From the sequence record MT884006.2: a stretch of DNA of 64,000 nt. One strand, given 5' to 3'. The position numbers and the translations under genes are program-made. Positions 1,786-60,972 of the stretch are shown here, one piece after another. The notes beneath the pieces were generated by a model. That model did not search any database. It worked only from the letters and a program-made list of their open reading frames with translations, and was not told the origin of the DNA. Each line of letters begins with the position of its first letter. Position 1 is the stretch's first letter. Source of the DNA: Escherichia phage vb_EcoM_bov9_1.

Positions 1786-1803
1786 GGCCTGTTTCGACAG
1801 GCC
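1786..1803 (+). terminator. GC hairpin after gene 18 (GGCCTGT-TTCG-ACAGGCC)
   Basis: 7-bp stem, TTCG tetraloop; no U-tract, so may be a partial terminator or stability element. Confidence 0.4.
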
Positions 1804-1804
1804 A

Positions 1805-1812
1805 TATAAATA
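1805..1812 (+). promoter_or_regulatory. Late promoter motif TATAAATA
   Basis: Exact T4 late -10 consensus 75 nt upstream of gene 19. Confidence 0.5.
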
Positions 1813-2382: not shown

Positions 2383-2400
2383 ATGGGGAGAAATCCCCAT
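2383..2400 (+). terminator. Hairpin after gene 19 (ATGGGGA-GAAA-TCCCCAT)
   Basis: 7-bp stem with GAAA tetraloop. Confidence 0.45.
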
Positions 2401-6195: not shown

Positions 6196-7761
6196 ATGAC
6201 TATCAAAACTAAAGCTGAACTTTTGAACAAATGGAAGCCATTACTGGAAGGTGAAGGTTTACCGGAAATTGCTAATAGCAAACAAGCGATTATCGCTAAA
6301 ATCTTTGAAAACCAGGAAAAAGATTTCCAGACAGCTCCGGAATATAAAGACGAAAAAATTGCTCAGGCATTCGGTTCTTTCTTAACAGAAGCTGAAATCG
6401 GTGGTGACCACGGTTACAATGCTACCAACATCGCCGCAGGTCAGACTTCTGGCGCAGTAACTCAGATTGGCCCAGCTGTTATGGGTATGGTACGTCGTGC
6501 TATTCCTAACCTGATTGCTTTCGATATTTGCGGTGTTCAGCCGATGAACAGCCCGACTGGTCAGGTATTCGCACTGCGCGCAGTATATGGTAAAGACCCA
6601 ATCGCTTCCGGCGCTAAAGAAGCATTCCACCCAATGTATGGTCCAGATGCAATGTTCTCTGGTCAGGGTGCTGCTAAGAAATTCGCTGCTTTGAAAGCAA
6701 GTGATACTCTTGAAGTCGGAACTATTTACACCCACTTCTTCCAGGACACTGGTACTGTGTATCTGCAAGCTACAGCAGCTAAACAAATTGATTCAGGTGC
6801 ATCTGACGCAGACAAATTAGATGCTGAAATTAAGAAACAAATGGAAGCTGGTGTACTGGTAGAAATCGCTGAAGGTATGGCTACTTCTATCGCTGAACTT
6901 CAAGAAGGTTTTAACGGTTCTACCGATAACCCGTGGAATGAAATGGGCTTCCGTATCGATAAACAAGTTATCGAAGCTAAATCTCGTCAGCTGAAAGCTG
7001 CTTACTCTATTGAATTAGCACAAGACCTCCGCGCTGTTCACGGTATGGATGCTGATGCTGAACTGTCTGGTATTCTGGCTACAGAAATTATGCTGGAAAT
7101 TAACCGTGAAGTTGTTGATTGGATTAACTACTCAGCTCAGGTTGGTAAATCTGGTATGACCCTGACTCCGGGTTCTAAAGCTGGTGTATTTGACTTCCAG
7201 GACCCAATCGATATTCGTGGTGCTCGCTGGGCAGGTGAATCCTTTAAAGCTCTGTTGTTCCAGATTGACAAAGAAGCAGTTGAAATTGCTCGTCAGACCG
7301 GTCGTGGTGAAGGTAACTTCATTATCGCTTCCCGTAACGTAGTTAACGTTCTGGCTTCAGTTGATACCGGCATTTCTTATGCTGCACAGGGTCTGGCTAC
7401 CGGCTTTAACACTGATACTACCAAGTCAGTATTTGCTGGTGTTCTGGGTGGTAAATACCGCGTATATATCGACCAGTATGCTAAACAGGATTATTTCACT
7501 GTAGGTTATAAAGGTCCGAACGAAATGGATGCTGGTATTTACTATGCTCCATATGTAGCTCTGACTCCGCTGCGTGGTTCCGATCCGAAGAACTTCCAAC
7601 CTGTAATGGGATTCAAAACTCGTTACGGTATCGGTATCAACCCATTTGCAGAATCCGCTGCTCAGGCTCCGGCTTCTCGCATCCAGAGCGGTATGCCTTC
7701 TATTCTGAATAGCCTTGGTAAAAACGCTTACTTCCGCCGTGTATATGTTAAAGGTATCTAA
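6196..7761 (+). CDS. 23: Major capsid protein gp23 (521 aa)
   Basis: Sequence MTIKTKAELLNKWKPLLEGEG... recognised as T4 gp23; 521 aa. Confidence 0.95.
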   Translation: MTIKTKAELLNKWKPLLEGEGLPEIANSKQAIIAKIFENQEKDFQTAPEYKDEKIAQAFGSFLTEAEIGGDHGYNATNIAAGQTSGAVTQIGPAVMGMVRRAIPNLIAFDICGVQPMNSPTGQVFALRAVYGKDPIASGAKEAFHPMYGPDAMFSGQGAAKKFAALKASDTLEVGTIYTHFFQDTGTVYLQATAAKQIDSGASDADKLDAEIKKQMEAGVLVEIAEGMATSIAELQEGFNGSTDNPWNEMGFRIDKQVIEAKSRQLKAAYSIELAQDLRAVHGMDADAELSGILATEIMLEINREVVDWINYSAQVGKSGMTLTPGSKAGVFDFQDPIDIRGARWAGESFKALLFQIDKEAVEIARQTGRGEGNFIIASRNVVNVLASVDTGISYAAQGLATGFNTDTTKSVFAGVLGGKYRVYIDQYAKQDYFTVGYKGPNEMDAGIYYAPYVALTPLRGSDPKNFQPVMGFKTRYGIGINPFAESAAQAPASRIQSGMPSILNSLGKNAYFRRVYVKGI

Positions 7762-7776
7762 TCTTTGACGATTTAA

Positions 7777-7792
7777 GGGACCTTCGGGTCCC
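7777..7792 (+). terminator. Terminator hairpin after gene 23 (GGGACC-TTCG-GGTCCC)
   Basis: 6-bp GC stem, TTCG loop, followed by T-rich run. Confidence 0.6.
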
Positions 7793-7809
7793 TTTAGTTG
7801 TTTTTATGG

Positions 7810-7817
7810 TATAAATA
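7810..7817 (+). promoter_or_regulatory. Late promoter motif TATAAATA for gene 24
   Basis: Exact consensus 28 nt upstream of gene 24 ATG. Confidence 0.65.
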
Positions 7818-7844
7818 AATCATATAAACCAAAAGGAAAGCGCA

Positions 7845-9128
7845 ATGGCTAAAATCAACGAACTTCTGCGCGAATCAACCACAACGAATAGCAACTCAAT
7901 CGGTCGCCCAAATCTCGTTGCTTTGACTCGCGCTACCACTAAATTAATATATTCTGACATTGTAGCAACGCAAAGAACTAATCAACCTGTTGCTGCTTTT
8001 TATGGTATCAAATACCTTAACCCAGACAATGAATTTACATTTAAAACTGGTGCTACTTACGCTGGCGAAGCTGGATATGTAGACCGAGAACAAATCACAG
8101 AATTAACAGAAGAGTCTAAATTAACTCTCAATAAAGGCGATTTATTCAAATATAATAACATCGTTTATAAAGTATTAGAAGATACTCCATTCGCTGATAT
8201 TGAAGAAAGCGACTTAGAGTTAGCTCTTCAGATTGCAATTGTTCTTTTAAAGGTTCGTCTATTTTCTGACGCAGCGTCAACAAGCAAATTTGAAAGCTCT
8301 GATAGTGAAATTGCGGATGCTAGATTTCAGATTAATAAATGGCAAACCGCGGTTAAATCTCGTAAACTTAAAACTGGTATCACAGTTGAATTAGCGCAAG
8401 ATTTAGAAGCAAATGGATTCGATGCTCCTAATTTCTTGGAAGATTTGCTTGCAACTGAAATGGCAGATGAAATCAATAAAGATATTCTGCAGTCTTTGAT
8501 TACAGTGTCAAAACGCTATAAAGTTACAGGAATTACTGATAGTGGATTCATCGATTTGAGTTATGCATCTGCACCTGAAGCGGGTCGTTCATTATATCGA
8601 ATGGTATGTGAAATGGTTTCGCATATCCAAAAAGAATCAACTTATACAGCAACGTTCTGTGTTGCTTCAGCTCGTGCCGCTGCGATTCTTGCTGCATCAG
8701 GTTGGTTAAAACATAAACCAGAAGATGATAAATATCTTTCACAAAATGCCTACGGGTTCTTAGCTAATGGTTTACCGCTTTATTGCGATACTAACAGCCC
8801 ATTAGATTATGTAATCGTTGGTGTAGTAGAAAATATCGGTGAAAAAGAAATTGTTGGATCAATTTTCTATGCTCCGTATACAGAAGGTCTTGACTTAGAT
8901 GACCCTGAACATGTAGGTGCATTTAAAGTTGTTGTTGATCCAGAAAGCTTACAACCGTCTATCGGTTTATTAGTTAGATATGCTTTATCAGCAAATCCTT
9001 ATACCGTAGCAAAAGATGAAAAAGAAGCAAGAATAATTGATGGTGGAGACATGGATAAAATGGCGGGTCGTTCAGATTTGTCTGTTTTATTAGGTGTTAA
9101 ATTACCAAAAATTATTATTGATGAATAA
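7845..9128 (+). CDS. 24: Capsid vertex protein gp24 (427 aa)
   Basis: 427 aa matches T4 gp24; gp23-like fold paralog by position; late promoter TATAAATA 28 nt upstream. Confidence 0.9.
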   Translation: MAKINELLRESTTTNSNSIGRPNLVALTRATTKLIYSDIVATQRTNQPVAAFYGIKYLNPDNEFTFKTGATYAGEAGYVDREQITELTEESKLTLNKGDLFKYNNIVYKVLEDTPFADIEESDLELALQIAIVLLKVRLFSDAASTSKFESSDSEIADARFQINKWQTAVKSRKLKTGITVELAQDLEANGFDAPNFLEDLLATEMADEINKDILQSLITVSKRYKVTGITDSGFIDLSYASAPEAGRSLYRMVCEMVSHIQKESTYTATFCVASARAAAILAASGWLKHKPEDDKYLSQNAYGFLANGLPLYCDTNSPLDYVIVGVVENIGEKEIVGSIFYAPYTEGLDLDDPEHVGAFKVVVDPESLQPSIGLLVRYALSANPYTVAKDEKEARIIDGGDMDKMAGRSDLSVLLGVKLPKIIIDE

Positions 9129-9131
9129 AAC

Positions 9132-9153
9132 AAAGGGACCGAAAGGTCCCTTT
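9132..9153. terminator. Bidirectional terminator hairpin between gene 24 (+) and rnlB (-)
   Basis: AAAGGGACC-GAAA-GGTCCCTTT, A/T runs on both sides. Confidence 0.6.
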
Positions 9154-9157
9154 TTAT

Positions 9158-10165
9158 TTAGCTCACCAACTCAATCCAAGCTGGACGAAGTACATCTTGT
9201 ACCATTTTAACTAATTCCTTTTTAATCAAAGAAGGATTATCTGCTTGAGTTAGAGTAATACCTTCACGAGAAGTTTCTTCCAAAATATCTTGAACAGTTA
9301 GCCCCATCACCTTTCCAAAATCCTTTGGACCAATTTCGCCAATTTTAGAAATAACGTTATTTACGCGGTTTAGTGTAACGTAACAAGCTAAAATTCCAAC
9401 CAATTTGTTATCAGCTTCTGATAGTTCAACTTTAGCTTTAATAGGCTTATCAGACTTTTTCTTTTCACTAAATTTAGAGTTCTTGCATTTAATCGCTACA
9501 CGAGCACCGTTTGGCAGCCATTTAGGGAAACAAGGCTTCAGAACATAACCTTCTGCAGTATTATCACCAATAACATTAGCATCAAATACACAATTATTTG
9601 CTTCGACAAGGTCTTCCGATGCCGTAACGTTATAAGCGGCTAAGACGGAATCAAGGTCGTTTGGAATCATGATAAGAGCATCAAATGTTCCACGTCCAAG
9701 CATTGGTGCCATTTTAAAACCAAACGTATTACAGAAATCTTGCATTTCGTAATCACTCATGTAATAAGTATCACCGCTTTCCGTGTTTATGATGATATCG
9801 AATACATAGAAATCTTTTTCACCGTAGTCAACACCTTTCTGAATTCCACCACCAGCGAATTCACCAAAGACTTGATATGTCACCGGCACTGAAGTTGAAA
9901 TACTGTCCATGACTTCTTGAACGCCTTTAATAGCTTTATCATACTTTTTGAGTACTATTTCATAGCCATAAAAATCTTCAGCAGGAAGAATAGGACCAGT
10001 ACGTTTAGCGCAAGTCACTTTATCACGCTCAATAATCAACGAGAAATTTGTGCCGTGAATCTTTTCACGAGCTACCCATTCGCCGCCAGTCAATCCCAAG
10101 CTGTAAAGTTTTTCAATAAATTTAGAGTTGTAATGATTTTCAAGACTGCTATACTTTTTAAACAT
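9158..10165 (-). CDS. rnlB: RNA ligase 2 (Rnl2)
   Basis: 335 aa; nucleotidyltransferase motif I KIHGTNF (lysine adenylation site); position after gene 24 as T4 24.1/rnlB. Confidence 0.85.
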
Positions 10166-10174
10166 AATTAATCC

Positions 10175-10453
10175 TCAAAATGTAATTTCTAACCAATCAC
10201 CATCACGCTGATCACTATTGACTTTAAAGCTAAATCCTTCTTTTCTAAGCCAATCACCAATTTCTTCAGTAATCAATTTATCGCGAGCAGTACAATAATA
10301 ACTAAAATGTGTTTTACCTTGTTCAGCTGCTTTATTAGCAAGTTCCGAAAAATCTTTAATAAAACACTCTAGCTTAAACTGTTTACTTTTAAGTGCTTTT
10401 TCGCGTAATTGATTAGCAAAAGATTCATTTTCATAAAGATCATACTGTTCCAT
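10175..10453 (-). CDS. Hypothetical protein (T4 24.2 position)
   Basis: 92 aa ORF tightly packed downstream of rnlB start; synteny only. Confidence 0.6.
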   Translation of the reverse strand: MEQYDLYENESFANQLREKALKSKQFKLECFIKDFSELANKAAEQGKTHFSYYCTARDKLITEEIGDWLRKEGFSFKVNSDQRDGDWLEITF

Positions 10454-10655
10454 TTTTCACCTTTTTATTGATATGTCTTTTTCTATAGACAACTTTTTCT
10501 CGAGTTTCAAATTTATTCTTAGCAGTCATAGCTCGAGCCCATAATACAGCCACTTCTTTTGCCTGTAAGTTTAATTCACGAGCAATTTCAATGAATGACT
10601 TTCCAGACTCATGAAGAGTAAACACCACAACCTCAGTTCTCATAATCAATCTCAT
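10440..10655 (-). CDS. Hypothetical protein (T4 24.3 position)
   Basis: 71 aa ORF, overlaps previous by 14 nt; synteny only. Confidence 0.5.
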   Translation of the reverse strand: MRLIMRTEVVVFTLHESGKSFIEIARELNLQAKEVAVLWARAMTAKNKFETREKVVYRKRHINKKVKNGTV

Positions 10656-10723
10656 GTTATCGAGTTGGTGCCATTATATACATCATTTTCTGATTGTGTT
10701 TTGTGTGCTTTCAAAATGAAGAA

Positions 10724-10739
10724 AGGGGCCGAAGCCCCT
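10724..10739 (-). terminator. Terminator hairpin after hoc
   Basis: AGGGGC-CGAA-GCCCCT followed on minus strand by T-rich run. Confidence 0.55.
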
Positions 10740-10744
10740 TATGA

Positions 10745-11875
10745 TTATGGATAGGTATAGATGATACCAGTTTCTAAAGCAGTTTTATGAATGATATATC
10801 CATTACGCGATTCTTGGACATCAACTTCTGGATAGTCTTTCATCATCTTCTGAAGAGTGTAACGATGCAGGTAGTATTTACTATCTGGATCTTCAGTTTT
10901 CCAATCTTTACCTTCTTCAGTCATTTTTTGAATTTCATCCATAACCCACCAACCGCACCAGATGTAAGCTGAGCTACGGTGTGGAAGAGGATGAACATAA
11001 GGTAATTCACCTTCTGGTTCTGGAGCAACTTTATCAGTTACCTGAACTTGACCTTCTGCCGTAATAGTTTTGCTATCATAATCAGCAGCAGTAACAGTTG
11101 CAGTAACTTCAATAGTTTGACTTCCAATAGATGAGGTATCAACGGTATATACATTAGTTGACCCTTCTACAGGAGAAGAATCTTTCTTCCATGAATACTC
11201 AATTTGCGCTTCTTCTGGAGCATCAGTGACATTAGCAGTAAATGTAGCCGAAGCATCTTGTTGAACGTTAATAGAAGGAGGAGTCAATGTAACCTGTGGA
11301 TTCATTGTTTTCTTATTAACCGTTAATGATACTTCATTGGAAGTAACTTCCTTTTCATTGTAATTTTCAGCAGTTACTTGGGCTACGCATTTAATTCTTT
11401 TTACTCCACTTGTAGTTGGAGTATAGCTAAATGTAGAGTTAGTTTCTCCACCAACTTGTGAATCATCTACATACCACTGATACGTAGCAGATGCTCCATC
11501 AGGTTGAGAAACTAAGGCAGCGGTAAATTCAACAGCTGTTCCGATTACTCCAGCGTCAGGGCTATTAGGAGTTACAGCTAAGGTAGTCGTTTGTGTCTTA
11601 TTTTGAACTGTGATAGTTGTAGTAGCTTCTGCTGTTTCAGCATCAGTATCTGGAACTGTATTTGTTGCAACTACTTTAATAGTCTTTTGCCCAGCAGGTC
11701 CTTTTAATACATAATCAAAAGTTGCTTCAGCTCCATCTTGTGGAGCATCATCTACAGTCCAAGCATATGTAATAGTTCCGCCTCCAGTTTCACCACTGGG
11801 TGTAGCAGTAAACTGCTGAGTCTGATCTATAACTCCAGTAGGTGTTTTAGGAGTTATATCAACTGTAAAAGCCAT
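10745..11875 (-). CDS. hoc: Highly immunogenic outer capsid protein Hoc (376 aa)
   Basis: 376 aa as T4 Hoc; Thr/Val-rich repeated Ig-like segments; position between 24.x and inh. Confidence 0.85.
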   Translation of the reverse strand: MAFTVDITPKTPTGVIDQTQQFTATPSGETGGGTITYAWTVDDAPQDGAEATFDYVLKGPAGQKTIKVVATNTVPDTDAETAEATTTITVQNKTQTTTLAVTPNSPDAGVIGTAVEFTAALVSQPDGASATYQWYVDDSQVGGETNSTFSYTPTTSGVKRIKCVAQVTAENYNEKEVTSNEVSLTVNKKTMNPQVTLTPPSINVQQDASATFTANVTDAPEEAQIEYSWKKDSSPVEGSTNVYTVDTSSIGSQTIEVTATVTAADYDSKTITAEGQVQVTDKVAPEPEGELPYVHPLPHRSSAYIWCGWWVMDEIQKMTEEGKDWKTEDPDSKYYLHRYTLQKMMKDYPEVDVQESRNGYIIHKTALETGIIYTYP

Positions 11876-11884
11876 AAGTTATCC

Positions 11885-12565
11885 TTATTTTAATGTTACG
11901 AAAGAAGAATTGCGTGTTTCACGAATTAAAACTGATCCATCACGATTAATGTAATAAATTAAGCTAAATAAAGTTTGGTGTGCTGACGCGTGCTCAAAAC
12001 TTGTTGGGTGAGATTTCCAATCCGGAGTTTCAGCAATCCATTGATAAATCCACCAAGGAACAGTGCAGAATCCTGGATTTTTTCCAATCAACTGAAGATT
12101 CGGACTAAAGTTTTCCGGAAGAGTAAATACAGACGGCCTTTCAGATTCAATAATCTCAGCTACAGCCTGTTCGAATTTTTCTTCAACAAAAGGAGTATCT
12201 TCAATCAAAACATCGGTATTTTCAGGAATTTTATCCGTTTCTACTACTTCAATTTTAATGTCAGATTTAACCGGAGAATCAATCAGAAGTGCTGCTTCTG
12301 GATTGACTTCTTCATCGTCATATTTTAACCCCTCTGCAGCATCAGCAGCATCAATTAAGTCTTTAATAGATAACCCATCAGTCTCCGGCATAGGTTCACT
12401 AGCGAGCTTCTGGAGGGCTTCTTCAATATCAACAACGATATTATCAAAAGATTTATTCTTTTTGACCTTTATACCAAACTGTTCAGCATATTCAGCTAAT
12501 TTAGCTTTAGCTTCTTTATTATCATCAAGAGCCTTCAGCTCTGCAATATAATCTTTATCTATCAT
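11885..12565 (-). CDS. inh: Inh, inhibitor of prohead protease (226 aa)
   Basis: 226 aa as T4 Inh; position between hoc and uvsW. Confidence 0.7.
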   Translation of the reverse strand: MIDKDYIAELKALDDNKEAKAKLAEYAEQFGIKVKKNKSFDNIVVDIEEALQKLASEPMPETDGLSIKDLIDAADAAEGLKYDDEEVNPEAALLIDSPVKSDIKIEVVETDKIPENTDVLIEDTPFVEEKFEQAVAEIIESERPSVFTLPENFSPNLQLIGKNPGFCTVPWWIYQWIAETPDWKSHPTSFEHASAHQTLFSLIYYINRDGSVLIRETRNSSFVTLK

Positions 12566-12615: not shown

Positions 12616-14127
12616 ATGACTGACATTAAAGTACATTTTTATGATTTTAGTCACGTGAGAATTGATTGTGAAGAAAGTACATTTCATGAACTCCGTGATT
12701 TCTTTAGCTTTGAAGCTGATGGGTATCGTTTTAATCCGAAATACAAATATGGCCACTGGGATGGACGAATCCGTCTTTTAGATTATAATCGTCTTCTTCC
12801 ATTCGGCTTAGTCGGGCAAATTAAAAAGTTCTGTGATAATTTTGGCTATAAAGCCTGGATTGACCCGCAAATTAACGAAAAAGAAGAATTATCAAGAAAA
12901 GATTTTGATGAATGGCTTTCTAAATTAGAAATCTATTCAGGAAATAAAAGAATTGAACCGCACTGGTATCAAAAAGATGCAGTGTTCGAAGGATTAGTTA
13001 ATCGTCGTAGAATTCTTAATCTTCCAACATCTGCAGGTAAATCTTTAATTCAAGCTTTGCTTGCGCGATATTATTTGGAAAATTATGAAGGTAAAATTCT
13101 TATCATTGTTCCAACAACTGCTCTGACAACTCAGATGGCTGATGACTTTGTTGATTATCGTTTATTCAGTCATGCAATGATAAAGAAAATCGGTGGCGGA
13201 GCATCAAAAGATGATAAATATAAAAATGATGCACCAGTCGTCGTTGGTACATGGCAAACTGTAGTTAAACAACCAAAAGAATGGTTCTCACAGTTTGGAA
13301 TGATGATGAATGATGAATGCCATCTTGCTACAGGAAAAAGTATTTCATCTATCATATCAGGTTTAAATAACTGTATGTTTAAATTTGGTCTATCTGGTTC
13401 ATTACGTGATGGCAAAGCCAATATCATGCAGTATGTTGGAATGTTTGGTGAAATATTTAAGCCAGTAACGACTTCTAAGTTAATGGAAGATGGACAAGTA
13501 ACTGAGCTAAAAATTAATAGTATTTTTCTTCGCTATCCCGATGAGTTCACTACTAAATTAAAGGGAAAAACTTATCAAGAAGAAATAAAAATTATTACTG
13601 GGCTTAGTAAAAGAAATAAATGGATCGCTAAATTAGCTATTAAGCTTGCGCAAAAAGATGAAAACGCTTTTGTCATGTTTAAACATGTATCACATGGTAA
13701 AGCTATTTTCGATTTAATTAAAAATGAATACGATAAAGTTTATTACGTATCAGGGGAAGTTGATACCGAAACCCGCAATATAATGAAAACCTTAGCTGAA
13801 AATGGTAAAGGAATAATTATAGTAGCTAGTTATGGTGTATTTTCTACTGGTATTTCAGTTAAAAATCTGCATCACGTTGTTTTAGCGCACGGTGTTAAAT
13901 CAAAAATCATTGTATTACAAACAATCGGTCGTGTATTACGTAAGCATGGTTCTAAGACAATAGCAACCGTCTGGGACCTCATAGATGATTGTGGCGTTAA
14001 GCCAAAATCTGCTAATACGAAAAAGAAATATGTTCATTTGAACTATCTTTTAAAACACGGCATTGATCGTATTCAGCGCTACGCAGATGAAAAATTTAAT
14101 TACGTAATGAAAACAGTTAATTTATAA
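12616..14127 (+). CDS. uvsW: UvsW SF2 DNA/RNA helicase (503 aa)
   Basis: Walker A LPTSAGKS, DECH box NDECH; 503 aa; late promoter upstream. Confidence 0.9.
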   Translation: MTDIKVHFYDFSHVRIDCEESTFHELRDFFSFEADGYRFNPKYKYGHWDGRIRLLDYNRLLPFGLVGQIKKFCDNFGYKAWIDPQINEKEELSRKDFDEWLSKLEIYSGNKRIEPHWYQKDAVFEGLVNRRRILNLPTSAGKSLIQALLARYYLENYEGKILIIVPTTALTTQMADDFVDYRLFSHAMIKKIGGGASKDDKYKNDAPVVVGTWQTVVKQPKEWFSQFGMMMNDECHLATGKSISSIISGLNNCMFKFGLSGSLRDGKANIMQYVGMFGEIFKPVTTSKLMEDGQVTELKINSIFLRYPDEFTTKLKGKTYQEEIKIITGLSKRNKWIAKLAIKLAQKDENAFVMFKHVSHGKAIFDLIKNEYDKVYYVSGEVDTETRNIMKTLAENGKGIIIVASYGVFSTGISVKNLHHVVLAHGVKSKIIVLQTIGRVLRKHGSKTIATVWDLIDDCGVKPKSANTKKKYVHLNYLLKHGIDRIQRYADEKFNYVMKTVNL

Positions 14128-14139
14128 GGGCTTCGGCCC
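14128..14139 (+). terminator. Hairpin after uvsW (GGGC-TTCG-GCCC)
   Basis: Short GC stem with TTCG loop between uvsW and uvsW.1. Confidence 0.4.
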
Positions 14140-14152
14140 TTTGGAGAAAAAG

Positions 14153-14383: not shown

Positions 14384-14438
14384 ATTAAAAAAGGCCCAAC
14401 CAAAAAGGAAGGGCCAAAACTATAGACTAAAGGTCACA

Positions 14439-22654: not shown

Positions 22655-22657
22655 CAA

Positions 22658-22677
22658 TGGGGACCTTTCGGTCCCCA
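22658..22677 (+). terminator. Terminator hairpin after gene 54
   Basis: TGGGGACC-TTTC-GGTCCCCA followed by TATTTTTATTT. Confidence 0.55.
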
Positions 22678-22682
22678 TATTT

Positions 22683-22973: not shown

Positions 22974-22980
22974 TTTGTGT

Positions 22981-23034
22981 TCCTCATGTTATGTCAGTAA
23001 GACTACTATAACACAACATAAGGAACTTGTAAAC
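22981..23034 (-). promoter_or_regulatory. Early promoter cassette (GTTTACA -35, 17-nt spacer, TATAGT -10, GAGGA RBS), copy A
   Basis: sigma70-like elements on minus strand; 51/54 nt identical to copy at 37956-38009. Confidence 0.55.
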
Positions 23035-27188: not shown

Positions 27189-27212
27189 GTTATCCTCTCT
27201 AGTGTTTATTCT

Positions 27213-27220
27213 ATTTATAA
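27213..27220 (-). promoter_or_regulatory. Late promoter (minus strand TATAAATA) for alt
   Basis: Plus-strand TATTTATA 25 nt upstream of alt start 27188. Confidence 0.55.
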
Positions 27221-27225
27221 AATTA

Positions 27226-27243
27226 AAGGCCCGAAGGCCTTTA
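27226..27243 (-). terminator. Terminator hairpin ending the gene 30 operon
   Basis: AAAGGCC-CGAA-GGCCTTT immediately after stop of 61-aa ORF. Confidence 0.5.
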
Positions 27244-27244
27244 A

Positions 27245-27430
27245 TTAATAGAGAGCTAAAAGAGTACGATATACTTCAAACTTTGGACCTTTTTCATATG
27301 GATCAAATCTTTCCGTGAATTCATCATATGCTAGTTTATCTGGGAATTCAAGAATAACCTGCGATACCGCAGTGGAAACATCTCCACCTTCTTTTTGAGC
27401 CACGACAATTGTTTCTAAGTAAGCTTTCAT
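27245..27430 (-). CDS. Hypothetical protein, 61 aa
   Basis: ATGA overlap with stop of DNA ligase gene; followed by terminator hairpin. Confidence 0.5.
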   Translation of the reverse strand: MKAYLETIVVAQKEGGDVSTAVSQVILEFPDKLAYDEFTERFDPYEKGPKFEVYRTLLALY

Positions 27431-31143: not shown

Positions 31144-31159
31144 AGGGGCCGAAGCCCCT
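31144..31159. terminator. Intercistronic GC hairpin (AGGGGC-CGAA-GCCCCT)
   Basis: Between two 30.x ORFs, just upstream of RBS of the downstream gene. Confidence 0.35.
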
Positions 31160-31534: not shown

Positions 31535-31560
31535 TTTTGTTCTCCGAGATGTTTAATTGC

Positions 31561-31600
31561 GGTACAGGTATATAATATCATATCCTGTACCAAAGTAAAC
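31561..31600 (-). promoter_or_regulatory. Early promoter (GTTTAC...TATTAT) overlapped by 8-bp inverted repeat GGTACAGG/CCTGTACC
   Basis: Inverted repeat flanks the -10 region; between two 30.x ORFs. Confidence 0.4.
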
Positions 31601-31602
31601 AA

Positions 31603-31992: not shown

Positions 31993-32022
31993 AACTTTAT
32001 GCAATCTTTGGAAAATAAAAAA

Positions 32023-32040
32023 GGACTCCCGAAGGAGTCC
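32023..32040 (-). terminator. Rho-independent terminator after small basic protein gene
   Basis: GGACTCC-CGAA-GGAGTCC followed on minus strand by TTTTTTATTTT. Confidence 0.6.
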
Positions 32041-32045
32041 TCAAC

Positions 32046-32264
32046 TTATGCTTTCTGCTTACCAAAACGAGAAGCATCATCTCGAAGAACCGCACGTGCT
32101 CGGCGCATGATCTTCTCAACAGTTTGATTGATACGAGAGTTCGACCCACGCTTGTAGCCAGCGCGTTTAGAATCACCAACTTTCTTTTCAACTGCTTTCT
32201 TTGCTTTAGCTTGTTTTGCCATTATAAATTCTCTTTTAAATGAAAATGCAGGACTTATTGGCAT
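32046..32264 (-). CDS. Small highly basic protein (Lys/Arg-rich; 72 aa or 58 aa from second ATG at 32222)
   Basis: Two in-frame ATGs; strong terminator hairpin just downstream of stop. Confidence 0.45.
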   Translation of the reverse strand: MPISPAFSFKREFIMAKQAKAKKAVEKKVGDSKRAGYKRGSNSRINQTVEKIMRRARAVLRDDASRFGKQKA

Positions 32265-32467
32265 TGCCTGCGCAAGCCCTCAAGGGGAACATAGGTTTTT
32301 GGGTATTTAACGACCAGGATAACCATAAACCCGTCATCATTCACATTCAAGAGGTACACCATAAAACTGCCGGGGTCTTAAAACTATAATGATTCGCAAA
32401 TCATTAATCAGACAGTTCGATGGCTCCTCGATTTTAGCTCACACTAAGGCAGTGAATCTCCAATAAA

Positions 32468-34953: not shown

Positions 34954-34982
34954 TTTGTTTTCCTCATTTGTTTGGTAGAGCC

Positions 34983-35012
34983 ATAATATCACAACTCTAC
35001 CGTAAAGTAAAC
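34983..35012 (-). promoter_or_regulatory. Early promoter candidate (GTTTAC...ATATTA)
   Basis: sigma70-like -35/-10 with 17-18 nt spacer upstream of ATG 34953. Confidence 0.45.
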
Positions 35013-35014
35013 TA

Positions 35015-37951: not shown

Positions 37952-37955
37952 AAAG

Positions 37956-38009
37956 TCCTCATGTTATGTCAGTAAGACTACTATAACACAACACGAGGGA
38001 CTTGTAAAC
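37956..38009 (-). promoter_or_regulatory. Early promoter cassette, copy B (upstream of alc)
   Basis: Same 54-nt architecture as copy A; GTTTACA...TATAGT...GAGGA then alc ATG. Confidence 0.55.
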
Positions 38010-38012
38010 AGC

Positions 38013-39600
<1,588 letters not shown>

Positions 39601-39607
39601 AATAAAA

Positions 39608-39623
39608 TGGGCCTTACGGCCCA
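39608..39623 (-). terminator. Intercistronic hairpin between nrdB and denA (TGGGCC-TTAC-GGCCCA)
   Basis: 6-bp GC stem in the 27-nt gap. Confidence 0.4.
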
Positions 39624-39627
39624 CTCC

Positions 39628-40806
39628 TTAAAAGTATTTTTTAAAACTCATCATAACTTTATCATCAACATCATTATCAATCTGTGCAACAAGATAAGAT
39701 GACAGTTCTACTTCTTGTGGCGCGGATTGAACATTATCAGAATTAAGATATTCACGAATCCAAGGATATGGATGTTTAACCGGAGCATCGGTAATTGGGC
39801 ATGGAAGACCGCACTGTTTCATACGAGATACAGTTAAGTAATCAATAAAGCTCCACATGCTATTTGTATTTAATCCAGGAACATCGCCATCTTTAAATAA
39901 ATGAACTGCCCAATCTTTTTCTTGGCGGTTAACTTCCATGAAAATATCAACTGCTTCTTGTTCACACTCTTGAGCAATTTTAACCCATTCATCGCCATCA
40001 GTACCAGATTGAAGTTGACGAATAATATATTGGGTGCCTTTAAGGTGAAGCTGTTCATCGCGTGCAATGAACTTCATAATCTTGGCATTACCTTCCATGA
40101 TTTCCATGTTTTTATGGAAGTTAAAGGTACATGCGAAAGATACATAAAAACGAATAGCTTCCAATGCGTTGATTACATGCAAACAGAGGTAAAGAGATTT
40201 CATTAGCTCATGCTTCCAATATGTCTCATGCTCAATAGCATCTTCAATAACGTCTTCGTCTGCATTAATTTCTTTTTGGTATTCGATATCAGCTTTAGCG
40301 TTTTCCCAATAACGAGTTTTAATCAGAACATCATCATAATAACGTCCAATGGATTCAGCACGTTTCATAATAGCTTCATCTAATACAATTTCATCAAATA
40401 CCTTCGATGGATCAGTATAAAGATTTCGCATGATATGTGTATATGAACGGCTGTGAATAGTTTCACTAAAAGTCCACGTAGCAACCCATGTATCAAGGCT
40501 TGGGTCTGAAATTAATGACATAAGTACAGCAGACGGCGCACGACCCTGAATGCTATCCAAAAGTGATTGATACTTCAGGTTATTAGTAAAAATATTTTGC
40601 TGATACTGAGGAAGCTTATTAAACTGTGCAGCATCCATCATTAAGTTTACTTCTTCAGGCCGCCAGAAAAATGATAATTGCTTTTCGGTCAAATCTTCAA
40701 AAACTTTATGGCGTTGAATATCATAACGCGCAATACCAAGACCTGAACCAAAAAACATAGGTTCTTTTAAAACATCAACTGGATTTGTATTAAAAACTGT
40801 AGACAT
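39628..40806 (-). CDS. nrdB: Ribonucleotide reductase small subunit NrdB, uninterrupted (no intron)
   Basis: Continuous about 392 aa ORF from MSTVFNTNP; di-iron RNR small subunit composition; start overlaps HNH gene stop (TAATG). Confidence 0.9.
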   Translation of the reverse strand: MSTVFNTNPVDVLKEPMFFGSGLGIARYDIQRHKVFEDLTEKQLSFFWRPEEVNLMMDAAQFNKLPQYQQNIFTNNLKYQSLLDSIQGRAPSAVLMSLISDPSLDTWVATWTFSETIHSRSYTHIMRNLYTDPSKVFDEIVLDEAIMKRAESIGRYYDDVLIKTRYWENAKADIEYQKEINADEDVIEDAIEHETYWKHELMKSLYLCLHVINALEAIRFYVSFACTFNFHKNMEIMEGNAKIMKFIARDEQLHLKGTQYIIRQLQSGTDGDEWVKIAQECEQEAVDIFMEVNRQEKDWAVHLFKDGDVPGLNTNSMWSFIDYLTVSRMKQCGLPCPITDAPVKHPYPWIREYLNSDNVQSAPQEVELSSYLVAQIDNDVDDKVMMSFKKYF

Positions 40807-41537: not shown

Positions 41538-43801
41538 TACAATTTACACGCTGCACAATCGTCGGCTTTAGGAGTTTCTATTTCATAATCATCAGTACCA
41601 GAACCATCACGGGTATTATGATAATAGAAATTTTTAATGCCATAATACCATCCGTATAGCATGTCATCAATCATTATTGACATTGGAACCTTTCCTTTTG
41701 GAAAAATCTGCGGGTCATAGTATGTATTAGCTGAAGCTGATTGACATACCCATTTCAGCATAATAGCTACTTGCGTAAGATAAGGTTTATTACCTTTCTT
41801 AGCTAATTTCCATGTATAATCATAGAGGTCTATGTTATGCTCAATATTGGGCACGACTTGATTAAAGGAGCCCTCTTTTGATTCTTTAACAGAGACTGGT
41901 CCACGTGGAGGCTCGATACCGTTTGTACTGTTAGAAACTTGGGAAGATGACTCACATGGCATAAGTGCTGATAATGTGCTATTACGGATGCCAAAGAGCT
42001 TAAGGTCTTCCCGCAGCGACGACCAGTCACAAACGTATTTTGGAGCTGCGATTTGGTCAATCTTTTTATTGTACCAGTCGATAGGTAATTCGCCTCGAGA
42101 CCAACGAGTGTCTGAATAATATTCGCAAGGTCCTTTTTCTTTGGCGAGCTTAATGGATGCTTTAATGAGTCCATACTGCAATCTCTCAAATAGTTCATGT
42201 GTTAAATCGTTAGCATCTTCATAAGAAGCAAAATTACTTGCCAGCCAAGCTGCATAGTTAGTAACACCTACGCCAAGGTTTCGACGCTTTTTAGCTTTTT
42301 CTGCTTCAGGAACTGGATATCCTTGGTAGTCCAAAAGATTATCAAGAGCACGAACTTGGACTTCTGCCAATTCATTAATTTTATCTTGGTCTTGCCAATC
42401 GAAGTTATCTAACACAAATGCAGATAATGTACACAATCCAATTTCAGCATCAGGACTATTCACATCATTTGTTGGAATAGCAATTTCACAACACAAGTTA
42501 CTCTGACGAATAGGTGCCTTTTCACGAATAAATGGAGTATAGTTATTCGTATTATCAATGAACTGTACATAAATCCTTGCTGTTCCTGATCGTTCAGTCA
42601 TGAGCAATTCAAACAGTTCACGGGCTTTAATACGCTTTTTGCGAATATTAGGGTCTTTTTCTGCGGCTTCGTATAATTCACGGAAACGGTCTTGGTCTTT
42701 AAAATAAGAATAATAAAGCTCGCCACCCATTTCGTGTGGACTGAACAAAGTAATGTAGTCGTTCTTTCCAAAACGTTCCATCATTAGGTCATTCAGTTGA
42801 ACGCCATAATCCATATGACGGATACGGTTTTCTTCTACGCCTTTGTTATTTTTCAAAACGAGAAGATTTTCAACTTCCAAATGCCAAATAGGATAATAAG
42901 CAGTAGCAGCGCCGCCACGAATTCCACCCTGTGAGCATGATTTAACTGCAGTCTGAAAATGTTTCCAAAAAGGAATAACACCAGTATGGCGTACTTCACC
43001 TGTGCCAATCTTAGAACCTTCGGCACGAATCATACCAACGTTAATACCAATTCCAGCGCGTTTGGAGATATATTCAACAATTGAAGCAGAAGCCTTATTG
43101 ATAGACTTTAATGAATCACCTGCCTCAATAACAACGCATGAACTAAACTGCCGAGTTGGAGTACGGCAACCAGCCATAATAGGAGTTGGCAGTGAAATCT
43201 GTCGAGTAGATACTGCTTCATAAAAACGGATAACGTGTTTTAATCTATCAACAGGTTCATCTTGATGCAATGCCATTCCAATAGTCATAAATGCAAACTG
43301 TGGAGTTTCATAAATTTGACCAGTGGTTTTATCTTTAACTAGATATTTTTCTTTTAATTGCATCGCCCCGGAATAAGTAAATTCCATATCCCGCTCATGC
43401 TTAATTTTTGATTCTAAAAATGTAATTTCTTCGGCAGAATATTTTAACAACAATTCAGGGTCGTATTTACCTTCATTTACACAGTAAGAAATATGATCAA
43501 TAAATGAACGTGGTTCATACTGCCCATAAACATGCTTACGAAGAGCGAACATTAAACAGCGTGCAGCTACATATTGATAATCAGGCTCTTCAACTGAAAT
43601 AGAATTCGCAGCAGCCTTAATTACAATAGTTTGAATGTCATCAGTTGTCATTCCATCACGGAGATATGATTTAATATTTTCATATAATTCATAAGGATCT
43701 ACAGATGTTCCTTCAGCTGCCCAAGATAAAACTTTAATAATTTTTTGCGGGTCAAAGCTCTGAGAAACACCACTACTTTTGATAACATTAATTAATTGCA
43801 T
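41537..43801 (-). CDS. nrdA: Ribonucleotide reductase large subunit NrdA (754 aa)
   Basis: 754 aa; class Ia RNR alpha; C-terminal Cys pair. Confidence 0.95.
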   Translation of the reverse strand: MQLINVIKSSGVSQSFDPQKIIKVLSWAAEGTSVDPYELYENIKSYLRDGMTTDDIQTIVIKAAANSISVEEPDYQYVAARCLMFALRKHVYGQYEPRSFIDHISYCVNEGKYDPELLLKYSAEEITFLESKIKHERDMEFTYSGAMQLKEKYLVKDKTTGQIYETPQFAFMTIGMALHQDEPVDRLKHVIRFYEAVSTRQISLPTPIMAGCRTPTRQFSSCVVIEAGDSLKSINKASASIVEYISKRAGIGINVGMIRAEGSKIGTGEVRHTGVIPFWKHFQTAVKSCSQGGIRGGAATAYYPIWHLEVENLLVLKNNKGVEENRIRHMDYGVQLNDLMMERFGKNDYITLFSPHEMGGELYYSYFKDQDRFRELYEAAEKDPNIRKKRIKARELFELLMTERSGTARIYVQFIDNTNNYTPFIREKAPIRQSNLCCEIAIPTNDVNSPDAEIGLCTLSAFVLDNFDWQDQDKINELAEVQVRALDNLLDYQGYPVPEAEKAKKRRNLGVGVTNYAAWLASNFASYEDANDLTHELFERLQYGLIKASIKLAKEKGPCEYYSDTRWSRGELPIDWYNKKIDQIAAPKYVCDWSSLREDLKLFGIRNSTLSALMPCESSSQVSNSTNGIEPPRGPVSVKESKEGSFNQVVPNIEHNIDLYDYTWKLAKKGNKPYLTQVAIMLKWVCQSASANTYYDPQIFPKGKVPMSIMIDDMLYGWYYGIKNFYYHNTRDGSGTDDYEIETPKADDCAACKL

Positions 43802-44118
43802 AAGTCCTCAACTTGAAAATCGTCTTTAAACAATCGGTTAACTATATGAGCTATTATATCACCATGACACGGCTTTGGTTTACATGTGCATCCTAGCCTC
43901 ATTCCACGTAAAGGCTCTAAATGTGCTTTAGTTATTTCTCCGGATTTAATTCGACGTATAAAATCTTTTTTGAATAATTCAATGGCAGCCTCCCGGCTGC
44001 CAGCATCTTTACCGACGTAATTTCCCCAAAATGTACCACGGTGAATATTAACATCAAAGTCGGATTTATATTTATTCACTACCCGGCATAGACGGCCCGC
44101 GCGGTAATAGTTCGTCAT
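43792..44118 (-). CDS. Hypothetical Cys/His-motif protein, 108 aa (nrdA.1 position)
   Basis: Motif [12 protein letters not shown] near C-terminus; overlaps nrdA start by 10 nt. Confidence 0.5.
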
Positions 44119-47054: not shown

Positions 47055-47079
47055 TTTATTCTCCTTAGTTGATAGGGTA

Positions 47080-47109
47080 ATAGTATCACACTACTACCCT
47101 TCTGTAAAC
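47080..47109 (-). promoter_or_regulatory. Early promoter (TTTACA -35, 17 nt, TACTAT -10)
   Basis: Upstream of ORF 46812-47054 with AGGAG RBS. Confidence 0.5.
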
Positions 47110-47868: not shown

Positions 47869-47887
47869 GGGGACCTCTAGGGTCCCC
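47869..47887 (-). terminator. Gene 32 rho-independent terminator
   Basis: GGGGACC-TCTAG-GGTCCCC followed on minus strand by TTTTTTATTTC; 22 nt after gene 32 stop. Confidence 0.6.
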
Positions 47888-56180: not shown

Positions 56181-56185
56181 ATTGA

Positions 56186-56203
56186 GGGAGCCTTCGGGCT
56201 CCC
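56186..56203 (+). terminator. Terminator hairpin after gene 35
   Basis: GGGAGCC-TTCG-GGCTCCC followed by TTTTTC. Confidence 0.6.
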
Positions 56204-56211
56204 TTTTTCTT

Positions 56212-56219
56212 TATAAATA
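56212..56219 (+). promoter_or_regulatory. Late promoter TATAAATA for gene 36
   Basis: Exact consensus 24 nt upstream of gene 36 ATG. Confidence 0.6.
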
Positions 56220-56242
56220 CTATTAAAATAAAGGGGCATACA

Positions 56243-60162: not shown

Positions 60163-60972
<810 letters not shown>

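What the first reader, a model, noticed from the sequence alone, without database searches (positions are those of the whole stretch)
9132..9153. Recurrent GC-rich tetraloop hairpin family at gene junctions
At least a dozen intergenic sites have a 5-8 bp G/C stem of the form GGG(G)(A/C)CC with a TTCG, GAAA or CGAA tetraloop: 1786, 2383, 7777, 9132, 10724, 14128, 22658, 27226, 31144, 32023, 39608, 47510, 47869, 56186, 60164. Some have U-tracts (true terminators), others do not and sit directly before an RBS. The shared stem sequence suggests a common origin or a shared RNA-binding or processing factor.
Basis: seen in the sequence. Interest (0 to 1): 0.35.

Follow-up and report, generated by a model that had tools for sequence, protein, structure and literature searches.

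The report
T4-type tetraloop terminator and mRNA hairpins
The recurring GC-rich hairpins are real, but they are the long-known UUCG/GNRA-capped RNA hairpins that end and stabilise transcripts between genes of phage T4 and its relatives, so the finding is ordinary.

Summary
The window is 100% identical to Escherichia phage vb_EcoM_bov10K1, a T4-like Tequatrovirus, covering genes 18 to motA. All 15 listed sites carry perfect 6-11 bp GC-rich stems. Non-coding DNA (4.8% of the window) holds 16 such hairpins against 0.65 expected from shuffles. Nine sites are UUCG, four are GNRA and two are pentaloops.

About nine sites have U-rich tails, so they look like intrinsic terminators; 9132 and 22657 are bidirectional ones between convergent genes. 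Six lack a U-tract. Five hairpins abut or precede a late promoter (TATAAATA). One lies between a Shine-Dalgarno sequence and the denA start codon.

T4 has the same hairpins at the same junctions. Relatives down to about 60% protein identity keep a hairpin there, but with different, fully compensated stems, so structure is selected and sequence is not.

I found no good evidence for a common origin or a sequence-specific factor. The class has been described since Tuerk et al. 1988.

Three side observations may be new: a G-run-first stem polarity absent from E. coli hairpins, repeated single-step loop inversions between close relatives, and a conserved split-SD arrangement at denA.

The parts
1786..1803 (+). 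Hairpin GGCCUGU-UUCG-ACAGGCC, 16 nt after the gene 18 stop. It has no U-tract, and the late promoter motif TATAAATA (1805-1812) for gene 19 directly abuts it.
   Evidence: T4 has the same hairpin with a U.G closing pair. The hairpin-then-ATAAATA arrangement is conserved with unrelated stems out to relatives with 180-245 kb genomes.
2383..2400 (+). Hairpin AUGGGGA-GAAA-UCCCCAU, 5 nt after the gene 19 stop. It has no U-tract, and TATAAATA follows about 30 nt downstream (gene 20).
   Evidence: Identical in T4. Orthologues carry other stems, and in some the late promoter precedes the hairpin.
7775..7794 (+). Terminator-like hairpin AAGGGACC-UUCG-GGUCCCUU followed by UAGUUGUUUUUA, after gene 23. 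The late promoter GTATAAATA for gene 24 follows.
   Evidence: z = -5.1. Orthologues have compensated stems GGAGCC, GGGAGAC and GGGAACC. Intrinsic terminators flanking T4 segD, which sits at this junction, are mentioned in PMC2988022.
9132..9153 (.). The target site: a bidirectional intrinsic terminator, AAAGGGACC-GAAA-GGUCCCUUU, between convergent gene 24 (+) and rnlB (-). U-rich tails are present on both strands.
   Evidence: z = -3.7 on + and -5.7 on -. Orthologues keep the hairpin with stems GGGCC, GGGACC or GGGAACC and loops GAAA, TTTC, AAAA, TCAC, TTAC or GCGA. T4 has the loop inverted, TTTC.
10723..10740 (-). Hairpin AAGGGGC-UUCG-GCCCCUU followed by UCUUCAUUUU, 4 nt after the hoc stop. 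A terminator with a weak U-tract.
   Evidence: Orthologues have stems GGAGCC, GGGCUCC and GGACUCC.
14126..14141 (+). Hairpin AAGGGC-UUCG-GCCCUU overlapping the uvsW stop codon. It is followed at once by UGGAG (SD) and the uvsW.1 start, with no U-tract.
   Evidence: Present only in the T4 clade and one other relative. The T4 record lacks 2 nt inside it.
22657..22678 (.). Bidirectional terminator AUGGGGACC-UUUC-GGUCCCCAU (GAAA on the minus strand) between convergent gene 54 (+) and alt.-3 (-).
   Evidence: All 24 orthologous loci have a strong hairpin here with many different stems, and close relatives differ by loop inversion.
27221..27246 (-). Hairpin (AAUUA)AAGGCC-UUCG-GGCCUU(UAAUU) overlapping the alt.1 stop. 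It is followed by UUUAUAAAUA, a late promoter TATAAATA for alt.
   Evidence: z = -4.0. Orthologues have stems GAGCC and GGGGC, each followed by ATAAATA.
31144..31159 (-). Hairpin AGGGGC-UUCG-GCCCCU, 9 nt after the 30.7 stop. It is followed by UACUGAGGAAAAUAUUAUG (the SD and start of 30.6), with no U-tract.
   Evidence: T4 has a UUCA loop here.
32022..32041 (-). Canonical intrinsic terminator AGGACUCC-UUCG-GGAGUCCU followed by UUUUUAUUUU, after 30.9.
   Evidence: Identical in T4.
39608..39623 (-). Hairpin UGGGCC-GUAA-GGCCCA between UAAGGAG (the nrdB stop plus an SD) and UUUUAUU-AUG (the denA start). It reads as a terminator-like element and also as a candidate split-SD translation initiation region.
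   Evidence: The denA start MKEIATEY equals the start of the PDB 2WSH construct. T4 gene 38 has the same layout, and that case is documented in PMC3014915.
47510..47526 (-). Hairpin GGGGCU-AUUAC-AGCCCC, 7 nt after the frd.3 stop. It is followed by GUUAAAAUGAGGAAA (SD) and the frd.2 start, with no U-tract.
   Evidence: Conserved only in close relatives.
47869..47887 (-). The gene 32 terminator: GGGGACC-CUAGA-GGUCCCC followed by UUUUUUAUUU.
   Evidence: There is covariation across 26 orthologous loci. Identical in T4.
56185..56204 (+). Canonical terminator AGGGAGCC-UUCG-GGCUCCCU followed by UUUUCUUUAUAAAUA. The tail runs into the late promoter TATAAATA of gene 36.
   Evidence: T4 and relatives differ by compensatory and wobble changes.
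60164..60179 (+). Hairpin AGGGCC-UUCG-GGCCCU, 4 nt after the gene 37 stop, directly abutting GGAGG (SD) and the start of the T2-type gene 38. No U-tract.
   Evidence: Relatives have a hairpin with other stems (AAGGGGC, AGAGGGC) at the same place before the SD.
14393..14415 (.).

Best explanation
These sites are not copies of one element. They are a functional class of very stable RNA hairpins, capped by UUCG or GNRA tetraloops, that punctuate the transcription units of T4-type phages. They act on the RNA strand.

(a) Where a U-rich tail follows, the hairpin is a Rho-independent terminator for host RNA polymerase. This applies to 7775, 9132, 10723, 22657, 32022, 47869 and 56185, and less clearly to 27221 and 39608. 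At convergent gene pairs (9132, 22657) it works in both directions.

(b) Where no U-tract follows (1786, 2383, 14126, 31144, 47510, 60164), the hairpin most likely does not terminate efficiently. Instead it marks the 3' end of the upstream cistron as a barrier to 3'-to-5' exonucleases. It may also insulate the next ribosome-binding site from upstream structure.

(c) At several late-gene junctions the hairpin sits next to a late promoter TATAAATA: directly abutting it at 1786 and 27221, within about 10 nt at 56185, and 20-30 nt upstream at 7775 and 2383. This forms an 'end of one unit, start of the next' module.

(d) At nrdB/denA the hairpin sits between the SD and the AUG. It probably shortens their effective spacing, as shown experimentally for T4 genes 38 and 25.

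What is shown here: the structures, their enrichment, their strand orientation, and their conservation with covariation. What is inferred: termination, RNA stabilisation and the translational roles.
For: Identity: the window is 100% identical to a Tequatrovirus, and T4 itself has the same hairpins at the same junctions.

Enrichment: 16 hairpins observed against 0.65 expected in intergenic DNA.

Strand: all 9 TTCG/CGAA sites in the window read UUCG on the transcribed strand. Across relatives, unique stem/loop combinations at co-directional junctions give 29 UUCG against 1 CGAA.

Selection on structure: downstream of genes 23, 24, 32, 35, 37, 54, hoc, alt.1 and nrdB, relatives keep a hairpin with different, compensated stems. 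For gene 32, 98.8% of cells pair, 6 of 9 pairs change on both sides, and 0 of 500 shuffles reach the observed values.

Position: most hairpins start within about 5 nt of the upstream stop codon, with gaps from -2 to 22 nt.

Literature:
- CUUCGG hairpins are especially abundant in T4 intergenic regions (Tuerk et al. 1988, as cited in PMC8948821).
- T4 intrinsic terminators are described as a GC-rich stem, a 4-nt loop and poly(U), and many have been predicted (PMC2988022).
- Intergenic stem-loops such as terminators often carry UUCG (PMC1702504).
- Split-SD hairpins are documented for genes 38 and 25 (PMC3014915).
Against: No transcript 3'-end or stability data for this phage or for T4 were available to me, so termination and exonuclease blocking are inferred.

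Six hairpins lack U-tracts, so 'terminator' cannot cover the whole set.

Two of the no-U-tract hairpins (14126, 47510) are confined to close relatives and may be dispensable.

The strong G-run-first polarity of the stems is not explained by this model: G>C in the 5' arm in 52 unique stems against 5, compared with 15 against 13 for E. coli intergenic hairpins.
Confidence: 0.85

Rival explanations
1. The hairpins are copies of one ancestral element. They would have been spread by transposition, or homogenised by gene conversion between sites, like the REP/BIME extragenic palindromes of enterobacteria.
For: Four sites share exactly GGGACC...GGTCCC, and these hairpins hold 8 of the window's 10 GGGACC copies. 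Other clades reuse GGAGCC at several junctions. Within-genome core sharing is nominally higher than between-genome sharing, 9.0% against 5.2%.
Against: The excess is not significant (p = 0.065). The sequence space allowed by the style is so small that chance identity is frequent. Copies share no flanking sequence, and stem lengths and loops differ. Orthologous sites diverge freely while staying paired.
Confidence: 0.06
2. The hairpins are recognition sites for a shared trans-acting RNA-binding or processing factor, from phage or host. That factor would read the G-run/C-run stem together with the tetraloop.
For: The stem style (A-run, G-run, C closing the UUCG loop) holds in about 35 T4-like genomes but not in host hairpins: 52 G>C against 5 in phage, 15 against 13 in E. 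coli, Fisher p = 1e-4. The UUCG orientation is strongly maintained.
Against: Stem sequences co-vary freely, so no base-specific contact in the stem is conserved. UUCG and GNRA are intrinsically stabilising loops and need no protein. No such factor appears in the T4 post-transcriptional reviews I read. Rfam has no matching family.
Confidence: 0.08
3. The inverted repeats act at the DNA level, as cruciforms or single-strand hairpins for replication, recombination or packaging, rather than in RNA.
For: Covariation alone cannot tell a DNA palindrome from an RNA hairpin. Repeated loop inversions show that the palindromes do engage in DNA-level template switching.
Against: The 29:1 orientation of UUCG on the transcribed strand is not expected for a strand-symmetric DNA function. 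So is the placement just after stop codons, with U-tails on the transcribed side.
Confidence: 0.02

Closest known systems
C(UUCG)G and GNRA tetraloop hairpins of phage T4 intercistronic regions (Tuerk et al. 1988, PNAS 85:1364; the paper itself is not held and is cited through PMC8948821)
   Same: The phage genus is the same, and the hairpins sit at the same junctions as in T4. They share the intergenic location, the UUCG loop closed by a C-G pair, and the extreme stability.
   Different: Nothing essential differs. This phage differs from T4 by a few compensatory or loop changes, two inverted loops (9132, 22657) and a different gene 37/38 junction.
Rho-independent (intrinsic) terminators of E. 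coli
   Same: A GC-rich stem, a short loop, a 3' U-tract, an A-tract upstream at bidirectional sites, and a position after stop codons. About nine of the 15 sites fit this description.
   Different: Six sites lack the U-tract. The stems have a G-run in the 5' arm and a C-run in the 3' arm, whereas E. coli hairpins in 200 kb show no such polarity.
Split Shine-Dalgarno initiation regions of T4 genes 38 and 25 (Nivinskas et al. 1999; Malys and Nivinskas 2009; reviewed in PMC3014915)
   Same: Site 39608 reads UAAGGAG, hairpin, 7 nt, AUG. This is the same layout as T4 gene 38, which reads UAAGGAG, hairpin, AAAU, AUG. The layout is conserved in about 30 relatives.
   Different: The gene is different (denA). 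I found no experimental test of it. The U-rich tail means the same hairpin could also terminate nrdB transcripts.
Intercistronic stabiliser hairpins and REP elements that block 3' exonucleases in polycistronic mRNAs (general knowledge of E. coli mRNA decay)
   Same: The proposed role of the U-tract-less hairpins is the same: a stable stem-loop just after a cistron that protects the upstream RNA segment.
   Different: REP elements are a true sequence family with conserved sequence. These hairpins are short, unrelated in sequence and capped by special tetraloops.

Membership tests
Intrinsic (Rho-independent) terminator | GC-rich RNA hairpin on the transcribed strand | tested here: met
   All 15 sites qualify.
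Intrinsic (Rho-independent) terminator | U-rich tract immediately 3' of the stem | tested here: inconclusive
   Met at 7775, 9132 (both strands), 10723, 22657 (both strands), 32022, 39608, 47869 and 56185, each with at least 5 U in the first 8 nt. 27221 is borderline. Not met at 1786, 2383, 14126, 31144, 47510 and 60164.
Intrinsic (Rho-independent) terminator | Transcripts actually end there | not testable with these tools
   I found no 3'-end mapping data for T4.
T4 C(UUCG)G / GNRA intercistronic hairpins | UUCG (or GNRA) tetraloop on the RNA strand, with C-G closing the UUCG loop | tested here: met
   Nine sites are UUCG, eight of them with a C-G closing pair (1786 has U-A). Four are GNRA and two are pentaloops. 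Orientation across relatives is 29:1.
T4 C(UUCG)G / GNRA intercistronic hairpins | Located between genes of a T4-type phage | tested here: met
   The window is a Tequatrovirus. Intergenic density is 5.2 per kb against 0.30 per kb in coding DNA. T4 has the same hairpins.
Dispersed repeat family of common descent (REP/MITE-like) | Copies share sequence beyond what the structure requires, including flanks | tested here: not met
   Stems, loops and flanks differ between sites. Orthologues co-vary freely.
Dispersed repeat family of common descent (REP/MITE-like) | Copies within a genome are more alike than copies between genomes | tested here: inconclusive
   15/166 within against 71/1374 between, permutation p = 0.065.
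Split-SD translation initiation region (T4 genes 38 and 25 type), for site 39608 only | SD upstream of a hairpin that brings it to a functional distance from the AUG, with no SD next to the AUG | tested here: met
   The sequence is UAAGGAG, a 16-nt hairpin, UUUUAUU, then AUG. The spacing falls from 23 nt to 7 nt when the hairpin folds. The layout is conserved in about 30 phages.
Split-SD translation initiation region (T4 genes 38 and 25 type), for site 39608 only | Destabilising the hairpin lowers translation | not testable with these tools
   This needs reporter or toeprint assays.
Any curated RNA family (Rfam 15) | A match at or above the gathering score | tested here: not met
   No matches anywhere in the window.

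The most novel reading that the evidence does not exclude
T4-like phages use a lineage-wide hairpin 'grammar' that differs from their host's terminators. The 5' arm is polypurine (A-run then G-run) and the 3' arm is polypyrimidine. UUCG is kept on the transcribed strand at co-directional junctions. At convergent junctions the loops are freely inverting GNRA/YNNC types. On this reading the grammar reflects an undescribed constraint. Candidates are a phage factor or phage-modified RNA polymerase that reads the hairpins, or selection for co-transcriptional folding in purine-rich mRNAs. The frequent loop inversions would be a palindrome template-switch process that can be seen in natural phage populations.
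Probability: 0.12. Interest if true: 0.45.

Novelty: already known. Interest (0 to 1): 0.15.

Why it matters
For annotation, these hairpins mark the ends of transcription units and the boundaries of late-promoter modules in T4-like genomes, and public records do not annotate them. They also locate errors and doubtful gene starts. The T4 reference lacks 2 nt inside two of them, and one of these gaps fuses uvsW with uvsW.1. T4 denA is annotated from a GTG inside a hairpin.

Biologically the class is textbook T4 material. Only the side observations (stem polarity, loop inversions, the denA split SD) might add something.

Tried and rejected
- Common origin or concerted evolution: a permutation test on loop-proximal stem cores across 11 clade representatives was not significant (p about 0.065).
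- G/C arm polarity as a general terminator property: rejected. E. coli hairpins from 200 kb show none, whether selected by U-tract or by intergenic position.
- Rfam search of the whole window: no matches.
- Literature: the original papers (Tuerk 1988, Miller 2003) are not held. Searches for T4 Term-seq or 3'-end data, for loop inversion in phage terminators and for a denA split SD found nothing specific.
- The T4 GenBank record carries no terminator features.
- The hairpin at 43983 first looked like a 16th intergenic member. It lies inside the T4-annotated nrdA.1 ORF, so I excluded it.
- My first impression that UUCG is never flipped at co-directional sites was wrong. One CGAA case exists downstream of hoc in L013.
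- The apparent rule 'UUCG at co-directional junctions, GNRA at convergent ones' rests on only two or three convergent junctions. It is confounded by orthology, so I do not claim it.
- The repeat finder with a 9-nt seed missed the imperfect promoter-embedded inverted repeats.

Full report
**What the window is.** Bases 7000-12000 match Escherichia phage vb_EcoM_bov10K1 (MT884007.2, Tequatrovirus, Straboviridae) at 100% identity, and hundreds of T4-like phages at 80-98%. The window corresponds to record positions 96002-160001. It runs from gene 18 (tail sheath) to motA, and its gene order is collinear with T4. Coding density is 95.2%, which leaves 3075 non-coding bases.

**Checking the observation.**
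- The target, 9132-9153, reads AAAGGGACC-GAAA-GGTCCCTTT followed by TTATTT. It sits 3 nt after the gp24 stop and 4 nt from the stop of the convergent rnlB gene.
- Every one of the 15 listed positions holds a perfect stem of 6-11 bp. The bare hairpins fold at -8.8 to -17.2 kcal/mol. All of them persist in the MFE and centroid folds when about 30 nt of flank are included.
- A mechanical search used perfect stems of at least 5 bp, at least 4 G/C pairs and loops of 3-8 nt. It finds 34 hairpins in the window, and 16 lie in or at the edge of the 4.8% of annotated non-coding DNA.
- One thousand dinucleotide shuffles of the intergenic segments give 0.65 +/- 0.80 hairpins and 0.14 tetraloops, against 16 and 14 observed. 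Density is 5.2 per kb intergenic against 0.30 per kb coding.

**Corrections to the description.**
- Read on the strand that is transcribed, every 'CGAA' loop is UUCG.
- The census is nine UUCG sites (1786, 7775, 10723, 14126, 27221, 31144, 32022, 56185, 60164) and four GNRA sites. The GNRA sites are 2383 (GAAA), 9132 (GAAA on +), 22657 (GAAA on -) and 39608 (GUAA). Two sites, 47510 and 47869, are pentaloops.
Four share exactly GGGACC.
- A further bidirectional hairpin lies between uvsW.1 and uvsY.-2 at about 14393-14415.
- A GNRA-capped hairpin at 43983 lies within the nrdA.1 ORF, which T4 annotates and this record does not.

**Two anatomical classes.**
- *U-rich tails.* Sites 7775, 9132, 10723, 22657, 32022, 39608, 47869 and 56185 have at least 5 U in the first 8 nt after the stem, and 27221 is borderline. 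Sites 9132 and 22657 lie between convergent genes. They have A-runs and U-runs on both sides, so they read as terminators in both directions.
- *No U-tract.* Sites 1786, 2383, 14126, 31144, 47510 and 60164 lack one. Four of them (14126, 31144, 47510, 60164) end 1-12 nt before a Shine-Dalgarno sequence.
- In both classes the hairpin usually starts within about 5 nt of the upstream stop codon, with gaps from -2 to 22 nt. This ties it to the end of the upstream cistron.
- At five late-gene junctions the T4 late-promoter motif TATAAATA abuts or closely follows the hairpin: 1786, 2383, 7775, 27221 and 56185.
- At the 18/19 junction the hairpin-then-ATAAATA arrangement persists with unrelated stems in relatives that have 180-245 kb genomes.

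**Evidence from relatives.**
- T4 carries the same hairpins at the same junctions. It differs only by a few compensatory, wobble or loop changes.
- I collected loci from IMG/VR around genes 24, 35, 32, 54, 19, denA and uvsW. A hairpin is present downstream of genes 23, 24, hoc, 32, 35, 37, 54, alt.1 and nrdB in phages down to about 60% protein identity.
- The stems differ between phages. Examples are GGGGACC, GGAGCC, GGGAGAC, GGAACC, GGACUC and GGCUACUC.
- For nine distinct gene 32 terminators, 98.8% of cells are paired and 6 of 9 pairs change on both sides. No shuffle out of 500 and no slid register comes close.
- Structure is therefore what selection keeps, not sequence.
- Orientation shows the structure matters in RNA. 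At co-directional junctions, unique stem/loop combinations read UUCG on the transcribed strand 29 times and CGAA once.
- Two of the U-tract-less hairpins (14126, 47510) are limited to close relatives.

Its first half, terminators plus pre-RBS hairpins, holds. Its second half, common origin or a shared factor, is not supported.
- Non-orthologous hairpins share no flanks.
- Orthologues drift freely while staying paired.
- Identical stem cores are not significantly more frequent within a genome than between genomes of different clades (15/166 against 71/1374, p = 0.065).
- The resemblance is a shared style: an A-run, a G-run, a C closing the UUCG loop, then the mirror image ending in a U-run.
- That style is real. 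Among 70 unique 5' arms from T4-like phages, 52 have G>C and 5 have G<C. In E. coli intergenic hairpins found by the same procedure the counts are 15 and 13 (Fisher p = 1e-4).
- I cannot explain the polarity. It leaves a small opening for a structure-reading factor or a folding constraint.

**Most likely mechanism.**
- The U-tract hairpins are intrinsic terminators for host RNA polymerase.
- The others are most plausibly barriers to 3' exonucleases that set the stability of the upstream cistron, and insulators of the next initiation region.
- Next to TATAAATA they close one late unit where the next begins.
- At nrdB/denA the hairpin lies between UAAGGAG and the AUG. This is exactly the layout of T4 gene 38, where a hairpin is documented to bring a distant SD to a functional distance (PMC3014915).
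- These roles are inferred. I found no 3'-end mapping for T4.

**Comparison with what is known.**
- This is the class described by Tuerk et al. (1988). CUUCGG hairpins are especially abundant in T4, mainly between genes (as cited in PMC8948821).
- Reviews describe T4 terminators as a GC-rich stem with a 4-nt loop and poly(U), and say many have been predicted computationally (PMC2988022).
- Another paper notes UUCG-capped intergenic stem-loops such as terminators (PMC1702504).
- Rfam has no family for them, as expected for generic terminators.
- The finding is a correct rediscovery of a known feature.

**Side observations.**
- *Loop inversions.* Close relatives with identical stems often carry reverse-complemented loops at the same junction. 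Examples are GAAA/TTTC at 24/rnlB and 54/alt.-3 (including T4 against this phage at both), plus ATA/TAT, GTAT/ATAC, TTAC/GTAA, TTA/TAA, TTCG/CGAA and CAAG/CTTG. That makes at least nine events, each needing 3-4 simultaneous substitutions. A one-step inversion of the spacer of a perfect inverted repeat is therefore likely, as in quasipalindrome template switching (general mechanism in PMC7202029).
- *denA split SD.* The arrangement is conserved in about 30 phages with compensated stems. The T4 record starts denA at a GTG inside the hairpin, whereas the crystallised protein starts at the downstream Met.
- *T4 reference gaps.* The T4 reference lacks 2 nt inside hairpins 14126 and 22657, and the first gap fuses uvsW with uvsW.1.
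- *A second hairpin class.* Five early-promoter-like cassettes (GTTTAC, spacer, TGTGATATTAT) are overlapped by long inverted repeats, and in some of them the 3' arm contains the next SD.

**Verdict.** The feature is already known, and interest is low.

Noticed in passing
window 9141-9144 and 22666-22669; loci L004-L009, L107-L126, L007/L008/L012/L013: Close relatives with identical stems carry reverse-complemented loops at the same junction. Examples are GAAA/TTTC, ATA/TAT, GTAT/ATAC, TTAC/GTAA, TTA/TAA, TTCG/CGAA and CAAG/CTTG. T4 differs from this phage in this way at both convergent junctions. There are at least nine independent events, which suggests one-step inversion of the spacer of a perfect inverted repeat by template switching. 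I found no description of this for phage terminators in the held literature.
   Followed up: partly
window 39600-39630 (minus strand); loci L151-L185; T4 locus L131 25940-25960: The nrdB/denA junction reads UAAGGAG (nrdB stop plus SD), a hairpin, 5-10 U-rich nt, then AUG, with no SD next to the AUG. The layout is conserved in about 30 T4-like phages with compensated stems. It is the same as the documented split-SD of T4 gene 38. The T4 record annotates denA from a GTG inside the hairpin (144 aa), while the PDB 2WSH construct starts at the downstream Met (136 aa).
   Followed up: partly
all intergenic hairpins of the window and of about 35 T4-like genomes (loci L003-L131): Stems are polar, with a G-run in the 5' arm and a C-run in the 3' arm. 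G>C holds in 52 of 57 unique arms that are not tied. E. coli intergenic hairpins from 200 kb show no polarity (15 against 13). The cause is unexplained.
   Followed up: partly
window 1805-1812, about 2431-2438, about 7810-7817, about 27208-27215 (minus strand), about 56213-56220: The T4 late-promoter motif TATAAATA abuts or closely follows five of the hairpins, forming hairpin-then-late-promoter modules. In some relatives (L144, L147) the promoter precedes the hairpin at the 19/20 junction, which would put the hairpin at the 5' end of the late transcript.
   Followed up: partly
window 22974-23033, 31535-31602, 34954-35014, 37952-38012, 47055-47108 (minus strand): Five early-promoter-like cassettes (GTTTAC, about 17 nt, TGTGATATTAT or TGTGTTATAGT) are each overlapped by a long inverted repeat of -15 to -27 kcal/mol. 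The -10 element is in or near the loop, and in some the next SD lies in the 3' arm. Two of them (22974 and 37952) share about 45 nt almost exactly. They may sequester the RBS in read-through transcripts.
   Followed up: partly
T4 locus L131 around 2190-2200 and 10720-10735, against window 14126-14141 and 22657-22678: The T4 reference AF158101 lacks 2 nt inside each of these two GC hairpins relative to this phage. This is probably a sequencing compression artefact. The first gap coincides with the single fused uvsW ORF in AF158101, where this phage has separate uvsW and uvsW.1.
   Followed up: no
window 43792-44118 (minus strand): A 108-aa ORF corresponding to T4 nrdA.1 is not annotated in MT884007.2. 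It contains a perfect 8-bp hairpin with a GGGA loop at 43983-44002.
   Followed up: no
window 14393-14415: A bidirectional terminator-like hairpin (GGCCC, a 13-nt loop, GGGCC, with an A-run and a U-run) lies between convergent uvsW.1 and uvsY.-2. Its large loop sets it apart from the tetraloop set.
   Followed up: no
window 32223-32467: The longest intergenic gap (245 nt, in the 30.9/rIII region) folds at -62.8 kcal/mol on the minus strand. I did not examine it further.
   Followed up: no
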